DNA of 12,099 nt. It comes from a virus. The position numbers were made by a program, and so were the translations under genes. Below the pieces are notes generated by a model. That model searched no databases, was not told the origin of the DNA, and saw only the letters and a list, made by a program, of their open reading frames with translations. Of the stretch, positions 1 to 12,099 are shown in pieces. Numbering within the stretch: the first letter of the stretch is position 1; every line of letters begins with the position of its first letter. The stretch is from the UHGV virus genome UHGV-1976345. The stretch is one strand, 5' to 3'.

Positions 1-33
1 ACACTCTTTCCCTACACGACGCTCTTCCGATCT
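1..33. other. Illumina TruSeq adapter (technical sequence, not biological)
   Basis: Bases 1-33 read ACACTCTTTCCCTACACGACGCTCTTCCGATCT, identical to the 3' 33 nt of the TruSeq universal adapter / Read 1 primer site; genomic sequence starts at 34. Confidence 0.95.
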
Positions 34-236
34 CGCAGCTGCTCTGTCATGATTTCCACGTCTGCCAGCTCTGCCGCGAGGTCACTTTCGCTGCCCTGTC
101 CGTTCAGGTTGCGGGCAGCACTGGCCGCCAGTTCAGCGGCCTCTTCTGTCAGTTTCAGGGCCTGTGCATCCGGACCGAAACGCTGCAGGGCCAGACGGTA
201 GAGGGCGGTGCGGGTGAGTTCGGTGTTCCGTGTCAT
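12..236 (-). CDS. Hypothetical small phage protein, 3'-partial; possible all-alpha MazG-like NTP pyrophosphohydrolase fold
   Basis: ORF track 12..236 (-). ATG at 236-234 with GAGGG Shine-Dalgarno about 9 nt upstream. The last 7 residues (RDRKSVV) and the stop are encoded by adapter bases 12-33, so the true C-terminus lies off the contig. KLTEEAAELAAS and DLAAELADVEIM resemble the EExxE and ExxD helices of MazG/HisE-type domains (recollection, not searched). Confidence 0.45.
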   Translation of the reverse strand: MTRNTELTRTALYRLALQRFGPDAQALKLTEEAAELAASAARNLNGQGSESDLAAELADVEIMTEQLRDRKSVV

Positions 237-245
237 GCCGCGCCC

Positions 246-518
246 TCAGTGTTTCCGGTCGACGGTGATGTTCAGGCCGCCTTCTGCAGTGGTTTCCACC
301 CGGTACGGCACCTCGTGCTCTGCCGTGTGGGTGAGTGTGTTCATCAGTACCTGCAGGGCAGCCGCCTTTCCGTTGGTTGCCACAATGGCCTGAGCGGCCA
401 TGCTGATTAACGCCGTCAGGACGTGCTTCACATCGGTGAGGTCGCGGCATTCACACTCGTTGACATAGTGTTCAACAAGGGTTCGGGTGCGCTGTCGTGC
501 TTCCTGTGGGGTAATCAT
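246..518 (-). CDS. Hypothetical protein, 90 aa, phage early-region type
   Basis: ORF track 246..518 (-). ATG at 518-516 with GGGAGGA Shine-Dalgarno 7 nt upstream. Start overlaps the stop of the upstream zinc-ribbon ORF (ATGA) and the stop lies 9 nt from the next start, i.e. operon-style packing. No family recognised. Confidence 0.55.
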   Translation of the reverse strand: MITPQEARQRTRTLVEHYVNECECRDLTDVKHVLTALISMAAQAIVATNGKAAALQVLMNTLTHTAEHEVPYRVETTAEGGLNITVDRKH

Positions 519-709
519 TGCGCGTCCTCCCTGTCAGGGCGGGAGAATTCCATGACGGGCACGTCCGCCGAAAAATGCTGGCTGCAGTACGGACAGACCA
601 GGGTGACGCGTACCGCAGGGATGTGGTATTTACCGGACATCACGGCGATGGCGCTGTGAAAACGCAGGGCTGTTATATCCCTCTCGCACTGAATACATTT
701 AAATATCAT
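515..709 (-). CDS. Small zinc-ribbon protein, 64 aa, two CxxC motifs
   Basis: ORF track 515..709 (-). ATG at 709-707 preceded by AGAGGAG. Protein has C5-x2-C8 and C39-x2-C42 (CIQC ... CPYC). Family not recognised; Com-like and Ogr-like were considered but the spacing differs. Confidence 0.55.
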   Translation of the reverse strand: MIFKCIQCERDITALRFHSAIAVMSGKYHIPAVRVTLVCPYCSQHFSADVPVMEFSRPDREDAQ

Positions 710-806
710 AATTTAATTCTCCTCTGTTTCCGGCGTGCAGAAGCCCACGGCGCTGACGCCGGAATAAAAAAGAAAATGTTTTTATTAAATAATTAACGTG
801 GTGTGT

Positions 807-1235
807 TTACTGCACATCCTGCTCAAAAGGAATTATTGAAAAATCCTCAATGTCGCTTTTAATGGAAATACCGGGAATATTTTTCACGGCCTCTTTTTCA
901 TTCAGGATAGCGTCTTTATTTATTTCCTCTTTTACACGAATAAAGCGCTCAAGCCCCAGACGTCTCAGTAATTCAATAACATTATCCGCCCCACGGATAC
1001 TGACTGATGGCGGACGGTTTCGCCACTGCACCTCGCCGGTGGTGAGGTTAGCGAACTTCACCTTCCCGTTGCCGGTCAGTTCATCACGGTGCGCCTCACA
1101 CCATGTCTGGATACCGGACTGCAGTTCGGCCATGCGTTTTTTCAGGCTCTCGGTGACCCGGCGAAACATAAAACGGCGATCGAGGATGAGGTGGTTACCT
1201 TTGACAAATCGACAGGGCAGGCCAGACTGGCGCAT
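807..1235 (-). CDS. gam: Mu Gam-family host-nuclease inhibitor, probably 5'-truncated or with uncertain start
   Basis: C-terminal ~120 aa of minus ORF 807..1703 (WCEAHRDELTGNGKVKFANLTTGEVQWRNRPPSVSIRGADNVIELLRRLGLERFIRVKEEINKDAIL...GISIKSDIEDFSIIPFEQ) match the Mu Gam C-terminal region closely from memory. Stop TAA at 809-807. The nearest in-frame ATG is 1235-1233 with no convincing Shine-Dalgarno. Upstream of about 1250 the ORF is only the antisense shadow of the sheath gene. Confidence 0.7.
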   Translation of the reverse strand: MRQSGLPCRFVKGNHLILDRRFMFRRVTESLKKRMAELQSGIQTWCEAHRDELTGNGKVKFANLTTGEVQWRNRPPSVSIRGADNVIELLRRLGLERFIRVKEEINKDAILNEKEAVKNIPGISIKSDIEDFSIIPFEQDVQ

Positions 1236-1250
1236 CCGGTTGTCGCTAAT

Positions 1251-2327
1251 GTGGTGGTGAAAAACAGTGAAGGCAGCACCACCCACACGGCGAACACGGA
1301 CTACCGTGTTGATGCGCAGGCGGGTGTGCTCACGAACCTGGGCAAGGCTATTGAGGCCGGTGGCAGCGTGAAGGTGAGCTATGAGTACGCGGACCCGTCG
1401 AAGGTGACTGCGGCGGACATCATCGGCGGGGTGAACAGCGCCGGAAACCGAACCGGCATGAAGCTGCTTAACGACAGCTTCAACCTGTACGGCTATTTCG
1501 CCAAAATTCTGATTGCGCCGGTGTTCTGCACCCAGAAGAGTGTCGCAGTTGAGCTTATCGCCATGGCAGAGAAGCTGGGCGCGGTAACCTACATTGATGC
1601 GCCTGTCGGTACCACCTTTGCACAGGCTCTGGCAGGTCGTGGCCCGGAAGGCACCATCAACTTCAATACCAGCTCCGACCGCGTCCGTCTGTGCTATCCG
1701 CATGTGAAGGTATATGACCCGGTGACAAACACAGAGCGTCTGGAGCCGCTCAGCCAGCGTGCAGCAGGTCTGCGTGCCAGAGTCGATCTGGACAAGGGCT
1801 ACTGGTGGTCATCCTCCAATCAGGAGATTCTGGGGATCACCGGCGTGGAGCGCCAGCTGTCCGCGATGATTGATGACCCGCAGAGTGAGGTAAACCTGCT
1901 TAACGAACAGGGGATCACCACGGTATTCAGCAGTTACGGCAGCGGCCTTCGTCTGTGGGGTAACCGGACGGCAGCATGGCCAACGGTCACCCATATGCGT
2001 AACTTTGAGAACGTTCGCCGCACCGGTGATGTGATCAACGAGTCCATTCGTTATTTCAGCCAGCAGTACATCGACATGCCGATTACTCAGGCGCTGATTG
2101 ATGCACTGACGGAGTCGGTCAACGCCTACGGTCGCAAAATGACTGGTGATGGTGCGGTACTGGGCTTCCGTTGCTGGTTTGATCCGGCCCGCAATCCGGA
2201 GACGGAGCTGGCCGCCGGGCACCTGTTGCTGAGCTACAAATATACGCCACCACCGCCGCTGGAGCGACTGACGTTTGAGACTGAGATCACCTCGGAATAC
2301 CTGTTAACCCTGAAAGGGGGCAACTGA
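1251..2327 (+). CDS. Contractile tail sheath protein (P2 FI / Mu L family), 5'-truncated, start undefined
   Basis: Plus ORF 1089..2327. Sheath-like motifs run from about 1290 to the stop at 2325-2327 (VKVSYEYADPSKVTAADIIGG, LRLWGNRTAAW, CWFDPARNPETELAAGHLLLSYKYTPPPPLERLTFE). The conserved N-terminal ~100 aa of sheath proteins is absent, there is no in-frame ATG or RBS near the homology start, and 1089-1250 is antisense to gam. Confidence 0.85.
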   Translation: MVVKNSEGSTTHTANTDYRVDAQAGVLTNLGKAIEAGGSVKVSYEYADPSKVTAADIIGGVNSAGNRTGMKLLNDSFNLYGYFAKILIAPVFCTQKSVAVELIAMAEKLGAVTYIDAPVGTTFAQALAGRGPEGTINFNTSSDRVRLCYPHVKVYDPVTNTERLEPLSQRAAGLRARVDLDKGYWWSSSNQEILGITGVERQLSAMIDDPQSEVNLLNEQGITTVFSSYGSGLRLWGNRTAAWPTVTHMRNFENVRRTGDVINESIRYFSQQYIDMPITQALIDALTESVNAYGRKMTGDGAVLGFRCWFDPARNPETELAAGHLLLSYKYTPPPPLERLTFETEITSEYLLTLKGGN

Positions 2328-2848
2328 TGTCAAAGATTGAGATAAACCGCATCACGAATGCCAACATCTATCTGGATGGTACTAACCTGCTGGGACGGGC
2401 TGAGGAAGTTAAACTCCCCGATGTCTCCATGATTATGCAGGAACACAAGGCGCTGGGGATGGTGGGTAAGGTGGAACTCCCGGCTGGTTTTGACAAACTG
2501 GAAGGCGAAATCAAATGGAACAGCTTTTACCGCGATGCGATGCTGTCTGCCGCGAACCCGTACAGGTCGCTGGCACTGCAGTGTCGTTCCAGCGTCCAGC
2601 GCTACAGCTCGCAGGGGCTGATTGACGAAATCCCGCTGGTCACCTTCCTGACGATTATGTTCAAGAAGAACCCGCTGGGGACGTTCAAACAGCACGAGAA
2701 CGCCGAGTTCTCCAGTAGCTTCACCTGCACGTATATCAGACAGGTACTGGATGGTGAAGAGCTGCTGCAACTGGACTATCTGGCCAACATCTTCCGGGTC
2801 GGCGGTGTTGATCAACTGACTGACTACCGTATCAATATCGGGGGCTGA
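2327..2848 (+). CDS. Tail tube protein (P2 FII family)
   Basis: ORF 2327..2848, 173 aa. ATG overlaps the sheath stop (TGATG) with AAGGGGG upstream. C-terminal FTCTYIRQVLDGEELLQLDYLANIFRVGGVDQLTDYRINIGG resembles the conserved P2 FII-type tube C-terminus (recollection). Confidence 0.9.
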   Translation: MSKIEINRITNANIYLDGTNLLGRAEEVKLPDVSMIMQEHKALGMVGKVELPAGFDKLEGEIKWNSFYRDAMLSAANPYRSLALQCRSSVQRYSSQGLIDEIPLVTFLTIMFKKNPLGTFKQHENAEFSSSFTCTYIRQVLDGEELLQLDYLANIFRVGGVDQLTDYRINIGG

Positions 2849-2850
2849 CG

Positions 2851-3132
2851 ATGAGTGTTGAACTGACGGATAAAGGAAGACGATGTGCGGCACTGGGCAT
2901 GTCAAATGGTACGTGGTTTACCCTCCTTGATATTCCGGGGGTGGAAACCCTTTTTAATACCCGTAAAACCAATGACCCGATTGACTGCACACGTTCAAAG
3001 GCCCGCAAACTGGCGGATTTGATTGAAGCATGGGAGCCTCCCGACCACTGGTTCTCCGGCACCGGCAAATCTGAGGGAAAGACGCTTCTCATCGCTTTCC
3101 TGCGTAACTGCAAGGGGTTTCGCACTTGCTGA
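2851..3132 (+). CDS. Hypothetical 93-aa protein between tube and chaperone genes (possible moron)
   Basis: ORF 2851..3132. ATG sits 2 nt after the tube stop with GGGGG Shine-Dalgarno 7 nt upstream, and is followed by a hairpin terminator. No family recognised. Uses several rare codons (AGA, CGA, GGA, CTT), so coding status is not certain. Confidence 0.45.
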   Translation: MSVELTDKGRRCAALGMSNGTWFTLLDIPGVETLFNTRKTNDPIDCTRSKARKLADLIEAWEPPDHWFSGTGKSEGKTLLIAFLRNCKGFRTC

Positions 3133-3138
3133 CATCAC

Positions 3139-3165
3139 AGGGGCTCCGGCCCCTTCTTCTTAATC
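3139..3165 (+). terminator. Putative intrinsic terminator or attenuator
   Basis: Perfect 6-bp GC-rich stem AGGGGC (3139-3144) / GCCCCT (3149-3154) with 4-nt loop TCCG, followed by T-rich TCTTCTTAATCTCCTTT, 7 nt after the ORF93 stop. Confidence 0.45.
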
Positions 3166-3229
3166 TCCTTTAATATCCGTCACGCGCTTCTCCCGACATA
3201 CTGCCCTGAACTTACACAGGAGCACAATC

Positions 3230-3565
3230 ATGTCACAGACCCCATCCGATACTTTTAAATTGTCTTATCCCTTCACCACTGCTGCAGGCACCAGAATTGA
3301 GCAGGTTGAACTGAAACGCCTGACGGTAAAAGACCTGAAGCAGGTGCGCAAAATCAGCAAAAACCCGGCAGACTGGGACGAACCGCTGATTGCCCGCAGT
3401 ACTGGTCTTCTCCCGGAAGATCTCGACAATATGGATCTGGCTGATTACCTGCAGTTACAGAAACGATTTCAGCTCATCACGGGGATGGGTGAGAGCAACC
3501 AGGGCGCTGACGCAGGCGCAGGGGCTGCTGGCGAGATGGTTCCGGTTTCAGCCGGGGGAGATTGA
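3230..3565 (+). CDS. Tail assembly chaperone, gpE-like (P2 E / lambda G analogue)
   Basis: ORF 3230..3565, 111 aa. AGGAG 7 nt upstream of the ATG. Lies immediately upstream of the tape measure gene and has a Gly/Ala-rich C-terminus, as in E/G-type chaperones; an overlapping out-of-frame extension ORF is present. Confidence 0.8.
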   Translation: MSQTPSDTFKLSYPFTTAAGTRIEQVELKRLTVKDLKQVRKISKNPADWDEPLIARSTGLLPEDLDNMDLADYLQLQKRFQLITGMGESNQGADAGAGAAGEMVPVSAGGD

Positions 3566-3647
3566 TGCCCTCGATACTGACGATCTGGAGATGTGGCTGG
3601 AGCAGGCTGAAGAGCAAATAAAAAGCGAGTACGGCGACAAATCATAG
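3230..3647 (+). CDS. Putative frameshift product E+E' (tail assembly chaperone, long form)
   Basis: ORF 3390..3647 (codon starts at positions divisible by 3) overlaps the 3' end of E (codon starts at positions with remainder 2). Its last 30 codons encode an acidic, protein-like peptide (GEIDALDTDDLEMWLEQAEEQIKSEYGDKS) ending 75 nt before the tape measure start. A GGGGG run at 3554-3558, two codons before the E stop, is the candidate slip site. Offset is +1 or -2, not -1. Confidence 0.5.
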
Positions 3648-3652
3648 TACAG

Positions 3653-3673
3653 ACAGCCGCCAGTAGCGGCTGT
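3653..3673 (+). promoter_or_regulatory. Stem-loop between E' stop and tape measure start
   Basis: ACAGCCGC (3653-3660) / GCGGCTGT (3666-3673), 8-bp stem with 5-nt loop, followed by a moderately T-rich tract (TCTGCGTTATCCCC). The tape measure RBS GGAGG follows at about 3709. Confidence 0.3.
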
Positions 3674-3722
3674 TCTGCGTTATCCCCTCACGTCTTTTCA
3701 CCTTCCCCGGAGGTTAACCACT

Positions 3723-6674
3723 ATGTCGGGACAGTTTTCAGTCGGCGTTGTTATCGGCGGGATGATTGGCAGCACATTCCGTTCTGCAATGAGCGGTACC
3801 CGCCGTGCGCTTGATTCCCTGAGCGATACCTCACGCCGCCTGCAGGAACGTCAGAACGCTTTAACCCGTGCAACAGAACGTTATGGTCAACTGGGTTCTT
3901 CCCGGATGCAGCATCTCAACAGCGAGCTGCTGCGGGTAAGCCGCACCATGGAGCAAATTGAGCGCCAGCAGCGCCGTCTGTCAGCGGCATCCGCTACCAG
4001 TGATGCGCTGAAAGCTAACCGCATGGCGCTGTATGGTCAGGGGATTGAAGCGTATGGCATGGCACAGACTGTTTATCATACGGTTTCCCCTGCCGTTCAG
4101 CAGTCCATGTCTTTTCAGGACAAAATGATTGATATGTCGATCACCGCAAAATATGACAATAAAACGCGGGATGGACTTGCCGGACAGATAAAAGGCTGGG
4201 CGCTTAAATACAATCAGTATCAGGATGAGCTGCAGGAGGCGGTGGGTTCACTCATCAGCGACAATATTGATAATGTGTCAGATATCGGTTTTCTGATGCC
4301 GGATATTGCCCGCGCGGCAACGGCAACACGCACGTCTGCTCAGGACTGGGCAAAAGTGGCCGCAGTCTGGCAAAACTCCCTGAAAGGTGCGGCCAGAGAT
4401 TTTGGTGCCGTTCAGAATATTATGGCTTATGCCGGTGACCAGGGGTCATTTGAAATCCCGGATCAGGTCAAGTGGATGCAGTCCCTGGCCCCAATGATGG
4501 CGGGTATTGCCAGTGGAAAAGAGGCTGTTGCTGAAATCGGGGCCAGTCTCCAGATAGCAAAAATCGGTGCAGGTTCCACCGACGAAGCAGCCAATAATTT
4601 TAAAAACTTTCTTACCAAAATTTTTGCCCGCGATACTCAGAAACAGTTTGCTGATCTGGGTATTGATTTGCAGGGATCTATTGCGAGTTATAAAGCTGCG
4701 GGGATCTCTCCGATTGAAGGGATGTTGAGTGTTATAGAACGTTACCTCAATGCCAAAAGCCCCGAAGCGCTGGCCGGCTTCAAATCAGCCATGAAAATAA
4801 AGAATGATACGGCAAGAGATGAGGCACTTCAGGCTCTGGCGAAAAACTTTGGTCTGGGCGATATGTTCGCGGATATGCAGGTCATGGCATTTATCCGCCC
4901 GATGCTGGCCAACATGGACAGATATCGAGAGATCCGTGCCGGTGCTCTCAGGGCTGCGGATAACGATTTGCTTGCCAGTGCTTATGATCAGCGGCTGAAA
5001 TCTCCCCTTGAAGCCACTAAAACACTTATGGTCAGCAGTCGCGATCTGGCAATTACGCTGGGCGATCAATTAGCTCCATCTTTTATTTCTTTGACTCAGG
5101 AACTGCTTCCACTCATTCAGGGGGCAAAACACTGGGTAGCGACTCACCCGCAATTTGTCAGTGGGGCTTTTAAGCTCATCAGTGCGCTCCTTGCGATTAA
5201 GATAGCGACTGTTGGTCTCAAACTGGGGCTGAATCTCCTTATTTCCCCCTTTGTAAGTGTCTGGAAAAATGCTGTTTTACTTCGGGCCAACTGGCTTCGT
5301 CTGTCGCTCGCACTGGGGCAAGGCGGTAAGCTCCGCTGGCTGGTGACCGGATTTAGCGCCGTCGCCAGAGGAGCCAGAACACTGAGTGGCGTGCTCTCCG
5401 GGGGGCTGGTTCGCGGAATTATGCTCGCCGGACGTGCTGTTCTCTGGATTGGAGGTGCGCTGATGATGAATCCCATCGGTCTCGTTATCACCGCTGTCGC
5501 GGCAGCAGCTTACCTTATCTACCGCAACTGGGGGGCAGTCAGTGGCTGGTTTAAACAGCGCTGGGCAGACATTCAGGAAGCCTTTAACGGCGGCATTGTG
5601 GGAACTGGTAAGTTGCTGATTAACTGGTCGCCGGCAGGCCTGCTCTATAAAGCCTTTGCGGCTGCGCTGAAATATTTCGGCGTTGCTCTGCCGGCAAAGT
5701 TCACCGACTTCGGTGGCCATCTTATCGACGGTCTGATTAACGGTATCAAAAACAAATGGGGGTCGCTCAAATCCAGTGTAACCGGAATGGGTGACAGCAT
5801 CAGTAGCTGGTTTAAACAGTGCTGGGCTGACATTCAGGAAGCCTTTAACGGCGGTATCGCGGGAACTGGTAAGCTGCTGATTAACTGGTCGCCGGCAGGT
5901 CTGCTCTATAAAGCCTTTGCAGCTGCGCTGAAATATCTTGGTGTTGATCTGCCGGCAAAGTTTACCGACTTCGGTGGCCATCTTGTCGATGGTCTGATTA
6001 ACGGTATCAAAAACAAATGGGAGTCGCTCAAATCCAGTGTAACCGGAATGGGTGACAGCATCAGTGGCTGGTTCAGCGAAAAGCTGGGCATTCATTCGCC
6101 GAGCCGCGTGTTTATGGGCTTTGGTGACAATATCGCGCAGGGGGCCGCCATTGGCCTGCAGCGGACCACTCCGCTTGCAGCTCTGGCCGGGCAGCGAATG
6201 GCCAGTGAACTGCTCCCCAGAATGCCCGTGAGCATCCAGGGGCCAGAAATACGGGATAACACTTCAGGTGTTCGCTTCAGTATGCCGTTGCCCGATATCA
6301 ATGGGTTTATGTCGTCTGCTAAAAATGCGATCGGAGCCGTAATCAATAGTTTGTCTTCCATGCCCGCTATTCCGCTCTCCACCCGGGCATCGATTTTACC
6401 AGGGCAACGTCTGGCAAATGAGATGACACCGGATGTTCCCCGTATCCCCTCGCCTGAAATCCTGGCTGCCGGATATTCAGGCCGTGGTGCAGCTGCAACC
6501 GGCGGTGGAACGTCTGGTGGTATCCAGGTCAGCTTTAATCCTCAGTTTTTCCTCAATGGCAGGGAAACCACAGCGCCTGCAGGACTGACTGGTGCCCTGA
6601 ATATGAGTCTGCATGAGCTGGAAAAAATGCTGGAGCGTCTGCTGGCTCAGAAACAACGTAAGGAGTACCGCTGA
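3723..6674 (+). CDS. Tail tape measure protein (P2 T family)
   Basis: ORF 3723..6674, 983 aa. Position after the E/E' pair, Ala/Gln-rich helical N-terminal region, long hydrophobic Gly/Ala/Leu-rich central segment (about residues 480-600) and an internal tandem repeat are all typical of tape measure proteins. GGAGG 9 nt upstream of the ATG. Confidence 0.9.
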   Translation: MSGQFSVGVVIGGMIGSTFRSAMSGTRRALDSLSDTSRRLQERQNALTRATERYGQLGSSRMQHLNSELLRVSRTMEQIERQQRRLSAASATSDALKANRMALYGQGIEAYGMAQTVYHTVSPAVQQSMSFQDKMIDMSITAKYDNKTRDGLAGQIKGWALKYNQYQDELQEAVGSLISDNIDNVSDIGFLMPDIARAATATRTSAQDWAKVAAVWQNSLKGAARDFGAVQNIMAYAGDQGSFEIPDQVKWMQSLAPMMAGIASGKEAVAEIGASLQIAKIGAGSTDEAANNFKNFLTKIFARDTQKQFADLGIDLQGSIASYKAAGISPIEGMLSVIERYLNAKSPEALAGFKSAMKIKNDTARDEALQALAKNFGLGDMFADMQVMAFIRPMLANMDRYREIRAGALRAADNDLLASAYDQRLKSPLEATKTLMVSSRDLAITLGDQLAPSFISLTQELLPLIQGAKHWVATHPQFVSGAFKLISALLAIKIATVGLKLGLNLLISPFVSVWKNAVLLRANWLRLSLALGQGGKLRWLVTGFSAVARGARTLSGVLSGGLVRGIMLAGRAVLWIGGALMMNPIGLVITAVAAAAYLIYRNWGAVSGWFKQRWADIQEAFNGGIVGTGKLLINWSPAGLLYKAFAAALKYFGVALPAKFTDFGGHLIDGLINGIKNKWGSLKSSVTGMGDSISSWFKQCWADIQEAFNGGIAGTGKLLINWSPAGLLYKAFAAALKYLGVDLPAKFTDFGGHLVDGLINGIKNKWESLKSSVTGMGDSISGWFSEKLGIHSPSRVFMGFGDNIAQGAAIGLQRTTPLAALAGQRMASELLPRMPVSIQGPEIRDNTSGVRFSMPLPDINGFMSSAKNAIGAVINSLSSMPAIPLSTRASILPGQRLANEMTPDVPRIPSPEILAAGYSGRGAAATGGGTSGGIQVSFNPQFFLNGRETTAPAGLTGALNMSLHELEKMLERLLAQKQRKEYR
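5547..6068 (+). repeat. In-frame tandem duplication (2 x 261 bp) inside the tape measure gene
   Basis: Copy 1 at 5547-5807 and copy 2 at 5808-6068 both begin TGGTTTAAACAG; about 17 mismatches over 261 bp (roughly 93% identity by hand count). Encodes two 87-aa units, WFKQ(R/C)WADIQEAFNGGI...GMGDSIS(S/G). A third unit starts at 6069 (TGGTTCAGCG) then diverges. Confidence 0.9.
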
Positions 6675-7558
6675 TGTTTGCCGTACTGGGTGATATTGAG
6701 TTTGAGCTGATTACCTACTGGGACGGCTTCGAGGCCACGTTCGGCGTCGATTATGCGGAGCATGCCCGCATCGGGGGTAAGCCTGGCCTGCAGTTCGTCG
6801 GCGACAGGCTGGACGAAATCCAGATAACTCTGGTTTTCCATCAGCATTATTGTGTACCCGATGTGGAGCTGGCGAGACTGCGAACAGCCATGAAAGCCCA
6901 TCAGGCACTGGCGCTGGTCTTCGGCAACGGTGACTATCGCGGCTGGTTCGTGATTACCGATGTGACTGCAACCAGCGAGCAGACTGACAGTACCGGCAAC
7001 GTGCTGGCTGTCAGTGCCACCGTGTCTCTCCGGGAATACACCGGTGACCCGAAAAATCCTCTGCAACCACCGGCAATACGCACGAAGCTCCCGGGTGTCG
7101 GGGCGGTCTCCGGTGCCATACCTTCACCTTCAGGGGTGGCGCAGTTCATCCGCAACGGCGTCAACTATGCGAAACAGGCGCAGTCTGTACTCCAGACCAC
7201 TATCAGCGCCGTTCGGGTGACACAGAAAATGAAGGATAACCCCGTTGTCGCACTGACCCGTGTGCCGGGGCTGATGAGCGGACTGGGTAATATCTCCGGG
7301 GCTCTGGGGAAAAGTGTTCCGGCGTTTAACGCACTCTCTGAATCCATGCCCGATGCCATCAGTCTGGCCAGAACAGCCAGCGAAGCAGCCACGTATGTAC
7401 AGCAGGCACAGTCTGCGCTGAGTGGTGTGGACAAAAGAAATATTGCAGGTGCTCTGGATACCGTTTCCGGGCAGCTTAACGCCGCCGGCACAGCATTCAA
7501 CCGCATGTCTCCGGGATTAAGTGCAATGGCCGCCAGAATACTGACGAGGAGTGTGTGA
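6674..7558 (+). CDS. gpU-family tail protein with about 150-aa C-terminal extension
   Basis: ORF 6674..7558, 294 aa. ATG overlaps the tape measure stop (TGATG) with AAGGAG upstream. The N-terminal ~130 aa fit the P2 gpU pattern (LGxIEFE...IGGKPGLQFVGDRLDEIQITLVF...GWFVITDV). The remainder is Ala/Ser/Gly/Gln-rich and unassigned. Confidence 0.75.
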   Translation: MFAVLGDIEFELITYWDGFEATFGVDYAEHARIGGKPGLQFVGDRLDEIQITLVFHQHYCVPDVELARLRTAMKAHQALALVFGNGDYRGWFVITDVTATSEQTDSTGNVLAVSATVSLREYTGDPKNPLQPPAIRTKLPGVGAVSGAIPSPSGVAQFIRNGVNYAKQAQSVLQTTISAVRVTQKMKDNPVVALTRVPGLMSGLGNISGALGKSVPAFNALSESMPDAISLARTASEAATYVQQAQSALSGVDKRNIAGALDTVSGQLNAAGTAFNRMSPGLSAMAARILTRSV

Positions 7559-7770
7559 TGTTTCTTGAACATGTTACCCGTGACGGAGAGCGCTGGGATT
7601 CGCTGGCATGGCAGTACTACGGTGACCCGCTGGGCTATCCCCGGATTATTGCCGCCAATCCGCACGTGGCCATCACGCCGGTGCTGCCCTCCGGGCTGTT
7701 GTTACTGATCCCGGTGATTGAGGCTGAAGAAGCCCGTACAGAAGAGGATATTGCCCCATGGCTGAGATAA
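7558..7770 (+). CDS. Tail protein X (LysM-like, P2 gpX family)
   Basis: ORF track 7555..7770 (GTG at 7555; ATG at 7558 is the more likely start and overlaps the U stop). MFLEHVTRDGERWDSLAWQYYGDPLGYPRIIAANPHV fits the gpX LysM-like pattern. GAGGAG upstream. Confidence 0.85.
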   Translation: MFLEHVTRDGERWDSLAWQYYGDPLGYPRIIAANPHVAITPVLPSGLLLLIPVIEAEEARTEEDIAPWLR

Positions 7771-8912
7771 ACAGCACTGCGCAAGTCACATCAGCGTTAA
7801 CCGGCGTCAGCGATGTGCTGACACCGGTGTTCACTTTGTGGTATCTGCAGAAAAACATCACCTCTGATATCGCGCCTTATGTCACCCGTGTGACCTGGAG
7901 CGATAACATCAAAAATGAGTCCGATACCATTGAGGTGGAGCTGGACGACACCGATGGCCGCTGGCTGGATAAATGGTATCCGGGCAAGGGTGACACGCTG
8001 ACGCTGAAAATGGGCTATCAGGGCGAGAAGCTGCTGTCCTGCGGTACGTTCTCTATAGACGAGATCGAAGTGAGTTCGCCCGCTTCCGTTGTTTCTATCC
8101 GTGGGGTGGCCACCTCGGTTAACAGTGCCCTGCGGACTAAAACCAGTCGTGGTTTTGAGAACACCACGCTGGCAGCTGTTGCGGGGCGGATTGCCAGAAA
8201 GCACCGACTGAAACTGGTGGGCAGCATTGAGTCCATCAGAATCGACCGGGTGACCCAGTATGCTGAAACCGACGTGGGTTTTCTGCGCCGGCTGGCCAGC
8301 GAGTATGGTTATGCAGTGAAAGTGGTCAGTGACCAGCTGATTTTTTCTCATCTGGCCACACTGCGCAGTCAGGAGCCGGTCAGGCAGTTAAAACCGCAGG
8401 ATGTGGCCCGCTTTTCCCTGCGTGACACCATCAACCGGGTCTATAAATCTGCAAAGGTAAAACACCAGAAAAGCAGCAGTAAAAAACTGATCGTCTACGA
8501 AGCTGATGGTGGTACCCGTGAAAGCGACAAAAAGCTCAAAGGTGGTAAGGTTACCAGCGCTGACTCACTTAAAGTTAACAGCCGCGTCAGCGACCCGGAC
8601 AGTGCCCGGATTAAAGCGGATTCAGCACTGGCCAGACATAACGAATACCAGCAGAACGGCTCCCTGACGCTGACGGGAACACCTCAACTGACAGCAGGCA
8701 ACAAAATTGAACTGGTGGGTTTTGGGCAGTTATCCGGGCCATGGCTCATAACCACTGCCCGCCATGCGTTTGACCGTAACAGCGGCTACACCACAGAGCT
8801 GGAAGTGGCACGGGGGCCAGTCACAAGAGGGAAAAAACAAAAAACTCAGAAACTCACGGTTTATCACCCGGATGGCAGTACATCGACGGTGATTAAGGAG
8901 AAGAAAAAATGA
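7758..8912 (+). CDS. Baseplate hub / late control protein D (P2 gpD family)
   Basis: ORF 7758..8912, 384 aa, similar in size to P2 gpD. Start overlaps the X 3' end by 13 nt with GAGGA 11 nt upstream. Has gpD-like motifs (FSIDEIEV, YAETDVGFLRRLASEYGYAVKV) and sits after X and before V. Confidence 0.9.
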   Translation: MAEINSTAQVTSALTGVSDVLTPVFTLWYLQKNITSDIAPYVTRVTWSDNIKNESDTIEVELDDTDGRWLDKWYPGKGDTLTLKMGYQGEKLLSCGTFSIDEIEVSSPASVVSIRGVATSVNSALRTKTSRGFENTTLAAVAGRIARKHRLKLVGSIESIRIDRVTQYAETDVGFLRRLASEYGYAVKVVSDQLIFSHLATLRSQEPVRQLKPQDVARFSLRDTINRVYKSAKVKHQKSSSKKLIVYEADGGTRESDKKLKGGKVTSADSLKVNSRVSDPDSARIKADSALARHNEYQQNGSLTLTGTPQLTAGNKIELVGFGQLSGPWLITTARHAFDRNSGYTTELEVARGPVTRGKKQKTQKLTVYHPDGSTSTVIKEKKK

Positions 8913-9505
8913 CTGGTGTCACTCGTCAGGTCGGTACGGTCAGTGCCGTTGATGCCGACAGGGTTCAGGCCCGCGTTCGTCTGCCTGAATGCGATAACCT
9001 GCGCACAAACTGGCTTAACGTGCTGCAGCGCAATACCCAGGATAACAAAGATTACTGGCTCCCTGACGTGGGGGAGCAGGTTGAGGTGCTGCTCGATGCC
9101 AACGGCGAGGATGGTGTTATTCTGGGCGCGGTGTATTCAGACGTCGATAAACCACCGTTCAGTGACAAAAATATCCGGGGAACCCGGTTTGCTGATGGTG
9201 CAGAGTACAGCTACAACCGGAAGACGCACACTCTGACCATCCGGGGCGGCATTGAGCATATTGTCATTGAGTGTGGTGCTGATGTGGTATTGAAAACACA
9301 GAAAGCCACGATTGACGCACCGGAAACCGAACTTACCGGAGATCTGCGTGTCAGGGGTAAGCTGATTTACGAAGGAGGCATGGCGGGTTCTGGTGGTGAA
9401 GGTGTTACCGCGACCATCCATGGCAATATCGAGATTAAAGGGAATGCCCATGCCACGGGCAGTATGTTGTCTGATGGCGAAAACTCCAGCCACCACTCCC
9501 ACTGA
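8909..9505 (+). CDS. Baseplate central spike protein (P2 gpV family)
   Basis: ORF 8909..9505, 198 aa. ATGA overlap with D and AAGGAGA upstream. WLPDVGEQVEVLL and a C-terminal Gly-rich beta-helix-like region ending in the His-rich SSHHSH match the gpV pattern. Confidence 0.9.
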   Translation: MTGVTRQVGTVSAVDADRVQARVRLPECDNLRTNWLNVLQRNTQDNKDYWLPDVGEQVEVLLDANGEDGVILGAVYSDVDKPPFSDKNIRGTRFADGAEYSYNRKTHTLTIRGGIEHIVIECGADVVLKTQKATIDAPETELTGDLRVRGKLIYEGGMAGSGGEGVTATIHGNIEIKGNAHATGSMLSDGENSSHHSH

Positions 9506-9541
9506 GCTTTTTAAACGCCTTTAATATCAGCGTTCCCGCAC

Positions 9542-9559
9542 GGGGGCAATACTGCCCCC
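9542..9559 (+). promoter_or_regulatory. GC-rich stem-loop directly abutting the gpW start codon
   Basis: GGGGGCA (9542-9548) / TGCCCCC (9553-9559), 7-bp stem with ATAC loop; the W ATG begins at 9560. No T-tract follows, so it is not called a terminator. Confidence 0.35.
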
Positions 9560-9907
9560 ATGAAAACAACCTCAGTATTCTGGCAACCGACCCTGCAGGC
9601 TCCCGGCGAAATTGTCCGGGGGCTGGATGATATCCGGCAGGCGATTCAAATTATCCTGCGGACTCCCCGCGGCAGCGACCCGCATCGCCCGGAGTTCGGC
9701 AGCAATCTGCATCTTTATATCGACTGGCCTGTAGACCGGGCCATTCCGCATGTGGTGCGCGAATCCGTCGATGCCATCCGGCGCTGGGAGCCCCGCTGCC
9801 AGCTTATGTCAGTTAAACCCGCCGTCGACGGCGAACATCTTACGCTCCGGGTGAGCTGGAAAGGCTCAGACGGACAGACCCGGACTCAGGAGCTGCTATG
9901 GCGCTGA
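9560..9907 (+). CDS. Baseplate wedge protein (P2 gpW / T4 gp25-like)
   Basis: ORF 9560..9907, 115 aa. IRQAIQIILRTPRGSDPHRPEFGSNL and RRWEPRCQL match the GPW/gp25 pattern (ILxTPxGS ... WEPR). Confidence 0.85.
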   Translation: MKTTSVFWQPTLQAPGEIVRGLDDIRQAIQIILRTPRGSDPHRPEFGSNLHLYIDWPVDRAIPHVVRESVDAIRRWEPRCQLMSVKPAVDGEHLTLRVSWKGSDGQTRTQELLWR

Positions 9908-11001
9908 CAGAACCCGATTTTATTGAACGCGATGCCGACAAAATCACGGCAGAAATGATTGCGAAGTATGAAGCGGATACCGGCAAAACGCTGTACCCGG
10001 CACAGGCAGAACGTCTGCTGATTGATCTGTGGGCCTATCGCGAAATGCTGGTCAGGGTTGCGGTACAGGAGGCAGCAAAGCAGAATCTGGTCGCCTTTGC
10101 CCGTGAGCCGATGATTGATTACCTCGGTGAACTGGTCGGTGTATACCGTCTTGCCGCGCAGCCTGCCACTACCACGCTCCAGTTCTCCGTAGATGAGGCA
10201 CTGGCCATTGATGTGCTGATCCCGGCAGGCACCCGCGTCAGCGCTTCCGACAGCGTTATTTTTGCCACCGATACAGATGTGGTACTGAAGGCCGGATTGC
10301 TGCTGGTCAATGTCACGTCCACCTGTACCGAACCCGGTACCGCTGGTAACGGCTGGCAACCTGCGCAGGTCAGTCAGTTACTCGATGAGATTGATAACGT
10401 CGACCTGCTGGTGAGCAATCTGACGGCCAGTTCCGGCGGTTCAGAACAGGAAGACGATGACAGGCTCCGGGAGCGTATCAGGCTGGCCCCGGAGTCATTC
10501 ACCAATGCCGGAAGCCGTGGCGCATACCGCTTTCATGCCATGCAGGCCCATCCCAACATTGTCGATGTTGCTGTGCTTTCCCCGGTTCCCGGGACCGTAG
10601 ATCTGTATCCGCTGCTCAGTACCGGTCTGCCGGACGGCGGTGTTCTCACGCTGGTAGAGAGTTTCTGCTCTGATGAGAAAGTCAGGCCACTCACTGATAC
10701 AGTGCGGGCTAAAACACCAGTGAAGGTGGATTACACCATTGAAGCCAAGATTACGATCTATCGTGATCAGGATGCCAGGTCTGTAAAAGATGCCGCTAAC
10801 AGCGCCATACAGAACTGGGTGGCATCACGTGCCGCCACGCTGGGGCGCGATATTGTCCCCAGCCAGATTATCAGTGCATTGTCCGTTTCCGGGGTGTACC
10901 AGGTTGAACTGGTGACACCGGCACTGCGGGTGGTGGCAGAAAACGAATGGGCAAACTGTACGGCAATCACTCTTAACATGACTGGAGTGTCTGATGACTG
11001 A
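9898..11001 (+). CDS. Baseplate protein J (P2 gpJ / T4 gp6-like)
   Basis: ORF 9898..11001, 367 aa. Overlaps the W stop by 10 nt with AGGAG upstream. SFTNAGSRGAYRFHAMQAHPNIVDVAV and LGRDIVPSQIISALSVSGVYQVEL match conserved gpJ regions. Confidence 0.9.
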   Translation: MALTEPDFIERDADKITAEMIAKYEADTGKTLYPAQAERLLIDLWAYREMLVRVAVQEAAKQNLVAFAREPMIDYLGELVGVYRLAAQPATTTLQFSVDEALAIDVLIPAGTRVSASDSVIFATDTDVVLKAGLLLVNVTSTCTEPGTAGNGWQPAQVSQLLDEIDNVDLLVSNLTASSGGSEQEDDDRLRERIRLAPESFTNAGSRGAYRFHAMQAHPNIVDVAVLSPVPGTVDLYPLLSTGLPDGGVLTLVESFCSDEKVRPLTDTVRAKTPVKVDYTIEAKITIYRDQDARSVKDAANSAIQNWVASRAATLGRDIVPSQIISALSVSGVYQVELVTPALRVVAENEWANCTAITLNMTGVSDD

Positions 11002-11572
11002 GCCATTACAACTCCCGCCACCGCTTGAGGGTGATATCAGTCTCAGGACGCTGGGAAGACTGGCAGGACGGCTGGATAACATCGACCTGAGCGTACTGAT
11101 GGTCTTTCTCGTCGATATCGTCGACAGTTCCGCGCTGCCATGGCTGGGCGAGCAGTTCTCACTGTCTGGCGATGGCTGGGAGCTGGCGGAATCGGACGAT
11201 GTTCGCCGCATGCTTATAAAAGCAGCCATCGAACTGCACCGGTATAAAGGGACGCCGTGGTCAATCCGGGAAGTTATCCGCCGTTTTGGCTTTGGTGAAG
11301 TGGATCTGATTGAAGGCACAGGTCGTCTCAGTTACGACGGCAATCGCAGCTATAACGGACTGTTTGTTCATGGAGATGCAGCCGCCTGGGCAGTTTATCG
11401 CGTTATTCTGAAACAGCCCATTACTAACGATCAGGCCGCGATGCTGCGTCAGACGCTGGCTGCATTTGCACCGGCCCGCTGCCATCTGGCCAGCCTGGAG
11501 TATCAGTCTGTGGCCATTCGCTATAACAATACCGCCATCCATGATGGCAGTTATAACCACGGGAGCAGTTGA
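10994..11572 (+). CDS. Baseplate / tail protein I (P2 gpI family)
   Basis: ORF 10994..11572, 192 aa. Overlaps the J stop by 8 nt with GGAG upstream. ALPWLGEQFSL ... HRYKGTPWSIREVIRRFG fits the gpI pattern (LPWLA ... H.KGT). Confidence 0.85.
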   Translation: MTEPLQLPPPLEGDISLRTLGRLAGRLDNIDLSVLMVFLVDIVDSSALPWLGEQFSLSGDGWELAESDDVRRMLIKAAIELHRYKGTPWSIREVIRRFGFGEVDLIEGTGRLSYDGNRSYNGLFVHGDAAAWAVYRVILKQPITNDQAAMLRQTLAAFAPARCHLASLEYQSVAIRYNNTAIHDGSYNHGSS

Positions 11573-11574
11573 TT

Positions 11575-12099
11575 ATGGGAAACCTGAATGAAACAGAAAA
11601 GTGGGAAGAAAATATCTATCAACTGGAGACATCAGATCCGGTTCTGGGTGGTGCAGACGGGATATCAAATCGAGCCCCCCGGCAACTGGCAAACAGGACG
11701 AAATGGCTGAAGAAAAAAACGGAGGAAGCCGCACAGTCACTGGCTGAACACGTACGTTCCCGTAACCACCCGGACGCGACACTGACAGCTAAGGGGTTCA
11801 CCCAACTGAGCAGTGCCACCAACAGCACCTCTGAAACGCTGGCCGCCACACCAAAGGCCGTCAAGGCTGCATATGACCTGGCTGCCGGCAAGGCCCCCGT
11901 CAGCCATACTCACCCGTGGAGTCAGATAACGGGAGTGCCTGCTGCCTCGCTGACGGCAAAAGGCACCGTACAACTGAGCAGCGCCACGGACAGTCAATCA
12001 GAAACTGAGGCTGCCACGCCGAAGGCGGTCAAGGCTGTATACGACCTTGCAGCCGGCAAGGCGCCCGTCAGCCACACTCACCCGTGGAGTCAGATAACG
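11575..12099 (+). CDS. Tail fiber protein (P2 gpH-like), 5' portion only; runs off the window end
   Basis: ATG at 11575, 2 nt after the I stop, with GGGAG upstream; frame is open to 12099 and not in the ORF track because no stop is reached. Contains HPDATLTAKGFTQLSSATNSTSETLAATPKAVKAAYDLA, the conserved fiber collar repeat seen in P2 H and lambda-type side tail fibers. Confidence 0.85.
   Translation, partial: MGNLNETEKWEENIYQLETSDPVLGGADGISNRAPRQLANRTKWLKKKTEEAAQSLAEHVRSRNHPDATLTAKGFTQLSSATNSTSETLAATPKAVKAAYDLAAGKAPVSHTHPWSQITGVPAASLTAKGTVQLSSATDSQSETEAATPKAVKAVYDLAAGKAPVSHTHPWSQIT
11782..12099 (+). repeat. Tandem tail-fiber repeat (2 units of about 150 nt, 168-nt period)
   Basis: Unit 1 at 11782-11931 and unit 2 at 11950-12099, both ending GCCGGCAAGGC(C/G)CCCGTCAGCCA(T/C)ACTCACCCGTGGAGTCAGATAACG. 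The 5' halves differ at many synonymous sites; the 3' ~45 nt are nearly identical. The window ends exactly at the end of unit 2. Confidence 0.85.

What the first reader, a model, noticed from the sequence alone, without database searches (positions are those of the whole stretch)
1089..1365. Antiparallel, same-register junction between a Gam-like gene and a tail sheath gene lacking its 5' end
The minus ORF 807..1703 and plus ORF 1089..2327 are exact codon-for-codon antisense of each other. The minus ORF is clearly Mu Gam-like only below about 1172-1250; the plus ORF is clearly sheath only above about 1290. So two unrelated genes on opposite strands meet with no intergenic DNA. The sheath has no ATG, no RBS and lacks the conserved N-terminal ~100 aa; Gam has no convincing start either. 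Every downstream tail gene looks intact and translationally coupled, which is not expected if the operon had long been headless and promoterless. Either this is a very recent deletion/inversion scar in a prophage, or the contig is chimeric; the untrimmed adapter at base 1 shows read cleaning was incomplete.
Basis: partly seen in the sequence, partly recalled or inferred. Interest (0 to 1): 0.6.

Follow-up and report, generated by a model that had tools for sequence, protein, structure and literature searches.

The report
Real deletion scar in Mu-like prophage
The odd head-to-head meeting of a truncated gam gene and a truncated tail sheath gene is the scar of a genuine, recent 20.6-kb deletion inside a Mu-like (Bcepmuvirus) prophage carried by one E. 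coli lineage; it is ordinary prophage decay, not an assembly error.

Summary
Window 34-1156 and 1155-12099 match two parts of one intact prophage, 0 and 1 mismatches against E. coli HSP60. The parts lie on the same strand and in the same order. In the intact phage 20,576 bp separate them. The junction is therefore a collinear deletion with a 2-bp microhomology (GA, 1155-1156), not an inversion. It removes gam codons 1-61, the transposase genes, the repressor region, the lysis and head genes, and sheath codons 1-85.

The chimera reading is refuted. A 120-aa ORF that exists only if the junction exists is on 11 public contigs. I read eight loci from seven named samples, and all carry the junction 30-mer. 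They continue left of window 34, so the adapter at 1-33 is only this contig's end. Three contigs reach host DNA at the same site in paaK, which indicates one clonal lineage and one event.

None of 640 complete E. coli genomes carrying this phage has the junction. The closest isolated phage is Escherichia phage PhiKM (Bcepmuvirus, 98.8%).

The "codon-for-codon antisense ORFs" are a by-product: the in-register antisense frame of the sheath is already open for 290 codons in the intact phage. The tail genes look intact because the deletion is too recent for decay. Low interest.

The parts
1..33 (.). Untrimmed Illumina TruSeq read-1 adapter stub (ACACTCTTTCCCTACACGACGCTCTTCCGATCT). Not biological; it marks only this contig's end.
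   Evidence: BLAST matches to E. coli start at base 34. Other contigs with the same junction continue past this point into phage DNA. Identification as the adapter rests on my own knowledge of the sequence.
34..236 (-). 5' part of an early-region gene for a nucleoside triphosphate pyrophosphohydrolase family protein, cut by the contig end.
   Evidence: Corresponds to L023 5039-5241 of the annotated CDS 4936-5241.
246..709 (-). Two small hypothetical early-region genes (246-518 and 515-709).
   Evidence: ORFs. Annotated CDSs L023 5251-5523 and 5520-5714, 100% identical.
807..1156 (-). 3' fragment of gam (host-nuclease inhibitor, Mu Gam family): codons 62-176 plus the stop, and 2 nt of codon 61. 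The start codon, RBS and first 60-61 codons are deleted.
   Evidence: The reference gam is 176 aa (L023 5812-6342). The match ends at window 1156 = L023 6161. Pfam PF07352 E=3e-32 covers profile 40-148 of 149, against 1-148 for the intact protein.
1155..1156 (.). Deletion junction: a 2-bp microhomology (GA) shared by both parental sequences. 20,576 bp of the intact prophage are missing here (L023 6162-26737).
   Evidence: The junction 30-mer is present in 8 loci from 7 named samples.
1155..2327 (+). 3' fragment of the contractile tail sheath gene: codons 86-475 plus the stop. The native start, RBS and N-terminal 85 residues are deleted. Gene callers start it at the internal GTG 1191 (378 aa).
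   Evidence: The reference sheath is 475 aa (L023 26481-27908). The match starts at window 1155 = L023 26736. Pfam PF04984 and PF17482 are retained; the weak Gp18_domIII_N match at residues 28-84 of the intact protein is lost.
807..1703 (-). Mechanical 298-codon ORF: the antisense of sheath codons fused by chance in frame to the gam fragment. It is not a gene. The 120-aa sub-ORF 807-1169 is what gene callers report, and it served as the diagnostic marker for the junction.
   Evidence: Only residues 184-291 hit any Pfam family (Gam). The antisense frame is open for 290 codons in the intact phage. No gene with the 298-aa product is on record, whereas the 120-aa product is on 11 contigs.
2327..12099 (+). 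Intact remainder of the tail module: tube (2327-2848), small ORF (2851-3132), tail assembly chaperone (3230-3565), tape measure (3723-6674), gpU-like (6674-7558), gpX (7555-7770), gpD (7758-8912), baseplate V (8909-9505), gp25/W (9560-9907), baseplate J (9898-11001), gpI (10994-11572), and the 5' part of the tail fibre gene (11575-12099, cut by the contig end).
   Evidence: ORFs. One mismatch (12038) in 10,945 bases against the intact HSP60 prophage. Annotation. 98.8% identity to the isolated phage PhiKM.

Best explanation
The window is part of a defective Bcepmuvirus (BcepMu/Mu-like transposable) prophage. A single internal deletion of 20,576 bp joined the middle of gam (leftward early operon) to codon 86 of the tail sheath gene (rightward late operon).

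The deletion removed the 5' third of gam and a small ORF. It also removed the B-type ATPase, the DDE transposase, the ner/repressor control region with the early promoter, a Dam methylase, and the lysis cassette. The terminase, portal, capsid and head-completion genes and the first 85 sheath codons went as well.

Shown: the deletion is real, collinear and recent, and it is carried by one clonal E. coli lineage whose prophage sits in paaK.

Inferred:
- It arose by illegitimate, microhomology-mediated end joining or replication slippage at the 2-bp GA.
- It was tolerated or favoured because it removes every lethal phage function.
- The remaining tail genes are silent passengers. No promoter-like site lies near the junction, the early promoter that leads to the Mor activator is gone, and the sheath lacks the N-terminal part needed for assembly.
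- These genes still look perfect only because there has not been time for mutations to accumulate.
For: (1) Window 34-1156 is 100% identical to HSP60 NZ_CM137001.1 555038-556160. Window 1155-12099 matches 576735-587679 of the same record with 1 mismatch. Both lie on the + strand in the same order. The same holds for Ecol_745.

(2) In intact relatives gam is natively on the opposite strand from the sheath gene. The intervening 20.6 kb holds the transposase, regulators, lysis and head genes.

(3) The 120-aa ORF starting 13 nt beyond the junction is diagnostic for the junction. It is on 11 contigs. The 8 loci I read come from SRR18174333, ERR14095536, ERZ28576748, ERZ28648265, SRR29019508 (same contig in 14 samples), SRR25011255 and SRR12874595. 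Each shows the 378-aa sheath nt from it on the opposite strand.

(4) All 8 loci contain the junction 30-mer. They are 99.8-100% identical to the window and extend past window 34.

(5) Three contigs from different samples reach host DNA at the same phage-end/paaK junction. Intact relatives sit elsewhere: in csiE, in a DUF2300 gene, and between sufC and sufB. This is as expected for a transposable phage, and the shared paaK site marks the deleted copies as one lineage.

(6) Pfam shows both genes are true fragments of full-length families.

(7) No sigma-70-like promoter is found in 600-2400.
Against: No read-level data were available, so I could not show directly that the intact allele is absent from these samples.

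No complete RefSeq E. coli genome (0 of 640 carrying the phage) shows the junction or the paaK insertion. It is also absent from the JGI metagenome, IMG/VR and GTDB-representative collections. The lineage is therefore known only from short-read contigs.

The right end of the element was never seen, because contigs break in tail-fibre repeats.

The deletion mechanism is inferred from a 2-bp microhomology, which is only weakly diagnostic. Silence of the tail genes is inferred, not measured.
Confidence: 0.9

Rival explanations
1. Assembly or library chimera: two unrelated fragments were joined by a chimeric read or misassembly, as the untrimmed adapter at base 1 might suggest.
For: An adapter is present at 1-33. 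The junction has only 2 bp of homology. It is absent from all 640 complete genomes carrying the phage and from three large contig collections.
Against: The identical junction is on 11 contigs from at least 7 named samples, produced by different archives and assemblers (Logan and ENA metagenome scaffolds). The two arms are collinear and only 20.6 kb apart within one element, which random chimeras would rarely produce. The other contigs lack the adapter and read on into phage and host DNA.
Confidence: 0.02
2. Inversion scar: one arm was flipped relative to the other, which would explain why the genes face opposite ways.
For: gam and the sheath gene are on opposite strands in the window.
Against: Both arms align to the same strand, in the same order, in every intact reference examined. 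The opposite gene orientation is native to this phage type.
Confidence: 0.01
3. Normal arrangement: a naturally short sheath that starts near 1190-1250 next to a divergent short gam.
For: Gene callers report a 378-aa sheath starting at GTG 1191 with a GAGGA upstream.
Against: In intact relatives and in the isolated phage PhiKM the sheath is 475 aa and gam is 176 aa, about 20 kb apart. The other records with a 378-aa call are frameshift-fragmented assemblies of intact prophages with head genes upstream. Pfam shows Gam profile positions 1-39 are missing.
Confidence: 0.01
4. The remnant is retained for a function. One version is a natural mini-Mu: both ends kept, no transposase, mobilisable in trans by a co-resident intact Bcepmuvirus. 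The other version is a domesticated tail cluster.
For: The left phage end (…TCTAATCA) is intact next to host DNA. All tail genes downstream of the sheath are intact. The phage family is common, found in 640 of 5426 complete genomes, some with several copies, so helpers are available.
Against: All three host-flanked copies are at the same paaK site, so there is no sign of movement. The sheath lacks its N-terminus and the lysis cassette is gone, so a tailocin could neither assemble nor be released. Near-zero divergence means intactness needs no selection to explain it. The right end was not observed.
Confidence: 0.05

Closest known systems
Escherichia phage PhiKM (PQ738613.1), genus Bcepmuvirus, and the equivalent intact prophages of E. 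coli HSP60, Ecol_745 and 504838
   Same: 98.8% nucleotide identity to PhiKM over 91% of the window, and 100% (1 mismatch) to the HSP60 prophage. The gene order is the same, and the leftward early operon (Mor ... gam, B, A) is divergent from the rightward lysis-head-tail operon.
   Different: The window's element lacks 20,576 bp between gam codon 61 and sheath codon 86, and it sits in paaK, a site seen in no complete genome.
Defective or cryptic prophages formed by internal deletion (general prophage decay), such as the cryptic prophages of E. coli K-12 (from general knowledge)
   Same: Loss of regulatory, replication or transposition, lysis and head genes through a deletion with minimal homology, leaving a non-inducible remnant that is inherited vertically.
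   Different: This one is very young, with 0-1 substitutions against an intact relative, so the surviving genes are still undamaged.
Laboratory mini-Mu elements (internal deletion derivatives of Mu that keep both ends; from general knowledge)
   Same: An internal deletion removes the transposase and the morphogenesis genes, and at least the left end is retained.
   Different: It is natural rather than engineered. The right end was not observed, and there is no evidence of mobilisation, since all copies are at one site. This is a resemblance only.
Mu Gam (PF07352) and the contractile tail sheath (PF04984 with PF17482)
   Same: Both fragments score far above the Pfam cut-offs: 112 bits for Gam, and 103 and 69.5 bits for the two sheath domains.
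   Different: Gam lacks profile positions 1-39. The sheath lacks residues 1-85. Neither has its native start.

Membership tests
Bcepmuvirus / Mu-like transposable prophage | High nucleotide identity to a classified member | tested here: met
   98.8% identity over 91% of the window to Escherichia phage PhiKM, whose taxonomy line reads Caudoviricetes; Bcepmuvirus.
Bcepmuvirus / Mu-like transposable prophage | DDE transposase (rve) plus AAA+ B-type ATPase | tested here: not met
   Both are present in intact relatives (PF00665 and PF13401). Both lie inside the deleted interval, so they are absent from the window's element. It is a member by descent but no longer autonomous.
Bcepmuvirus / Mu-like transposable prophage | Insertion at many unrelated chromosomal sites | tested here: met
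   Near-identical prophages lie in csiE, in a DUF2300 gene, between sufC and sufB and in paaK.
Bcepmuvirus / Mu-like transposable prophage | Element termini 5'-TG...CA-3' | tested here: inconclusive
   The Mor-side end reads ...TCTAATCA next to three different host sequences. The other end was not examined for the deleted element.
Mu Gam family (PF07352) | Full-length Gam domain with its own start | tested here: not met
   The fragment covers profile 40-148 of 149, E=3e-32. The intact relative covers 1-148. The native start is deleted.
Contractile tail sheath | Phage_sheath_1 and Phage_sheath_1C domains | tested here: met
   PF04984 E=1.7e-29 and PF17482 E=2.8e-19.
Contractile tail sheath | Complete N-terminal region and native translation start | tested here: not met
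   Residues 1-85 of 475 and the upstream RBS are missing.
Assembly or library chimera | Junction confined to one assembly or library | tested here: not met
   The junction is on 11 contigs. The 30-mer was verified in 8 loci from 7 named samples.
R-type tailocin / domesticated tail cluster | Complete sheath, tube and baseplate genes plus own regulator and lysis cassette, without head genes | tested here: not met
   The head genes are absent, but the sheath is truncated and the holin, transglycosylase and spanin genes lie in the deleted interval.
Natural mini-Mu (trans-mobilisable deletion derivative) | Both ends retained, and copies found at more than one site | tested here: inconclusive
   The left end is retained. 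The right end was not seen, because contigs stop in the tail-fibre repeats. Three host-flanked copies share one site, so no movement is seen.

The most novel reading that the evidence does not exclude
The remnant is a naturally occurring mini-Mu-type element. It would keep both transposable-phage ends and a complete set of post-sheath tail genes but no transposase. A co-resident intact Bcepmuvirus, common in E. coli, could then transpose or package it in trans, or recombine with its tail module.
Probability: 0.04. Interest if true: 0.45.

Novelty: new member of a known kind. Interest (0 to 1): 0.15.

Why it matters
Mostly as a clean-up result. An apparently suspicious junction next to an untrimmed adapter turns out to be genuine biology, and it can be dated as recent. 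It shows how a transposable prophage is disarmed in one step: a single 20.6-kb deletion removes the regulators, transposase, lysis and head genes. It also explains why "headless" tail operons can look pristine. The junction and the paaK insertion are precise markers for tracking one human-associated E. coli lineage in metagenomes. No new mechanism or gene family is involved.

Tried and rejected
(1) Exact scans for the junction 30-mer in IMG/VR, the GTDB species representatives and the JGI metagenomes all found nothing. The same held for the paaK/phage-end 30-mer in the JGI and GTDB sets. These collections do not contain this lineage.

(2) Exact-protein look-ups of the 412-aa plus ORF, the 298-aa minus ORF and the 142- and 159-aa alternative starts found nothing on record.

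(3) Look-ups of the 378-aa sheath call and the 108-aa gam call were not diagnostic. Both lie wholly on one side of the junction. They turned up in frameshift-fragmented assemblies of intact prophages.

(4) I considered restriction-site or proximity-ligation origins for the junction. A TCGA lies at the right-hand breakpoint in the intact phage, but there is no matching site on the left and no GATC. Rejected.

(5) I considered transposase-mediated intramolecular deletion. Rejected because neither breakpoint is a phage end.

(6) The promoter scan around the junction found no sites.

(7) One literature search on BcepMu-like prophages in E. coli returned nothing specific to this element.

Full report
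**Observation**

The six-frame ORF list shows a minus-strand ORF 807..1703 (298 aa) and a plus-strand ORF 1089..2327 (412 aa). Their codon registers coincide: (1089-807) mod 3 = 0. Bases 1-33 match no E. coli sequence. I recognise them as the 33-nt Illumina TruSeq read-1 adapter stub.

**Placing the breakpoint**

I ran megablast against 5,426 complete E. coli genomes.
- Window 34-1156 matches a Gam-containing early region of a prophage at 100% in 11 of the listed records.
- Window 1155 onward matches the tail sheath and tube region of the same prophage at 100%.
- In records holding both parts, such as Ecol_745 and HSP60, the two matches lie on the same strand and in the same order.
- No genome among the 640 with a match has a single place covering at least 80% of the junction-spanning query.

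Direct comparison with the HSP60 prophage gives the detail.
- The left arm has 0 mismatches in 1,123 bases.
- The right arm has 1 mismatch (position 12038) in 10,945 bases.
- The left match ends at window 1156 (L023 6161) and the right match begins at window 1155 (L023 26736).
- 20,576 bp are missing.
- The parental sequences share only the dinucleotide GA at the join.

This is a collinear deletion, not an inversion. The opposite orientation of gam and the sheath gene is native to this phage. In intact copies the early operon runs leftward (ner-like gene, DUF3102, DDE transposase, ExeA/AAA+ B protein, small ORF, gam, and on to gemA and mor). The lysis, head and tail genes run rightward. The isolated relative, Escherichia phage PhiKM, has the same layout and is classified in Bcepmuvirus.

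**What is lost from each gene**

- The reference gam is 176 aa. The window keeps codons 62-176. Pfam PF07352 covers profile positions 40-148 of 149, against 1-148 for the intact protein.
- The reference sheath is 475 aa. The window keeps codons 86-475. PF04984 and PF17482 are retained. A weak Gp18_domIII_N match at residues 28-84 of the intact protein is lost.
The real breakpoint is 1155/1156.
- An internal GTG at 1191, preceded by GAGGA, is what gene callers use for a 378-aa product.

**The antisense ORF pair**

Over the sheath segment the in-register minus frame has 2 stops, against 12 and 21 in the other two minus frames. GC3 of the segment is 0.70. In the intact phage the same antisense ATG opens a 290-codon frame. 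The deletion happened to fuse this open antisense frame in phase with the gam remnant, a 1-in-3 chance. Only the Gam-derived residues 184-291 of the 298-aa ORF hit any family. The ORF pair is a by-product and not a feature.

**Real or chimeric?**

This was the key question and could be settled without reads. The minus-strand ATG at 1169 lies 13 nt beyond the junction, so the exact 120-aa product can exist only where the junction exists.

That product is on 11 contigs in the public collection. The places returned come from seven named samples:
- SRR18174333
- ERR14095536
- ERZ28576748 (SAMEA5848694)
- ERZ28648265 (SAMN26286434)
- SRR29019508 (the same contig in 14 samples)
- SRR25011255
- SRR12874595

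Each place has the 378-aa sheath nt away on the opposite strand. All eight fetched loci contain the junction 30-mer. They match the window at 99.8-100%, the differences being two SNPs in one metagenome scaffold and a run of N in another. All of them continue beyond window 34 into the rest of the early region. The adapter therefore tells us only how this particular contig ended.

Three contigs reach host DNA. All show the same phage end (…TCTAATCA) abutting the same position in paaK. Intact relatives are in csiE, in a DUF2300 gene, or between sufC and sufB. No complete genome has the phage in paaK. The simplest reading is one insertion followed by one deletion in a single E. coli lineage, which has since been sampled repeatedly. 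The chimera hypothesis is refuted unless all these runs share one library.

**Why the tail genes look perfect**

The deleted element differs from an intact prophage in another strain by at most one base in 12 kb. There has been essentially no time for decay. This reasoning is inference. It rests on generally known bacterial substitution rates of order 1e-7 to 1e-6 per site per year, which predict far less than one change per century in 12 kb. Intact, translationally coupled genes are what a young deletion should show.

**Likely mechanism and consequences (inferred)**

- The 2-bp microhomology, and the absence of any phage end at the join, point to illegitimate recombination. That means microhomology-mediated end joining or replication slippage, not transposase action.
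- The deletion removes the early control region and promoter, both transposition genes, the holin, transglycosylase and spanin cassette, and every head gene. The remnant can neither be induced, transpose, lyse the cell nor make capsids.
- No sigma-70-like promoter lies within 600-2400.
- The Mor-family activator at the far end of the early operon has lost its upstream promoter.
- The sheath has lost its N-terminal region. From general knowledge of contractile sheath structures, this region takes part in inter-subunit linkage.
- The tail module is therefore most likely silent and non-functional.
- The prophage also disrupts paaK, so the host has probably lost phenylacetate catabolism.

**Comparison with known things**

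This is a defective prophage of a known genus, created by an ordinary internal deletion. It superficially resembles a mini-Mu, with ends kept and transposase lost. However, the right end was not seen and there is no sign of movement. It is not a tailocin: the sheath is truncated and the lysis genes are gone.

**Verdict**

The feature is real but ordinary, so interest is low. Its main value is as a lineage marker and as a worked example showing that an adapter-tagged contig can still carry a genuine structural variant.

Noticed in passing
window 1-33: An untrimmed Illumina TruSeq read-1 adapter stub forms the contig's left end. Other assemblies of the same locus read on into phage DNA here, so the adapter is a contig-end artefact unrelated to the junction.
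   Followed up: yes
window 5539-6073: A 261-bp tandem duplication (2.0 copies, 93% identical) lies inside the tape measure gene. A metagenome scaffold of the same element (L027) has a run of N at about window 4895, upstream of the duplication in the same gene, and PhiKM has a sequencing gap in its tape measure gene.
   Followed up: partly
window 11803-12099 (L023 37552-38136): The contig's right end lies in the tail fibre gene, in a stretch that matches three further positions offset by 168 bp (85-92% identical). The repeats probably broke the assembly. The only mismatch to HSP60 (12038) lies in this stretch.
   Followed up: partly
L028 7745-8584; L027 13155-13409; L030 4799-4989: In the deletion lineage the prophage interrupts paaK (phenylacetate-CoA ligase), with paaX and paaY downstream. 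No complete RefSeq E. coli genome has this insertion. The host flank is 100% identical to strains such as ATCC 8739 and HS.
   Followed up: partly
L003-L022 (for example GCA_053291625.1, GCA_039615195.1): Several megabase-scale contigs in NCBI assemblies carry intact copies of this prophage with many genes split into short calls. This looks like frameshift-rich assembly. It is why 'truncated' 378-aa sheath and 108-aa gam products are on record without any deletion, a caution for exact-protein look-ups.
   Followed up: no
window 3230-3647: The tail assembly chaperone ORF (3230-3565, Phage_TAC_7) overlaps a second ORF in another frame (3390-3647). This is the layout of the programmed frameshift seen in P2 E/E+E'-type chaperones.
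   Followed up: no
L023 38769-40979 (outside the window): Intact relatives carry a serine recombinase next to oppositely oriented tail-fibre and assembly gene cassettes. This is the layout of a Gin-type invertible host-range segment. In strain 504838 the region is additionally interrupted by an IS66-family element (L001 33335-35950).
   Followed up: no
E. coli complete genomes: This Bcepmuvirus-type prophage is widespread. 640 of 5,426 complete E. coli genomes match the junction region's arms. Some carry several places per genome.
   Followed up: no
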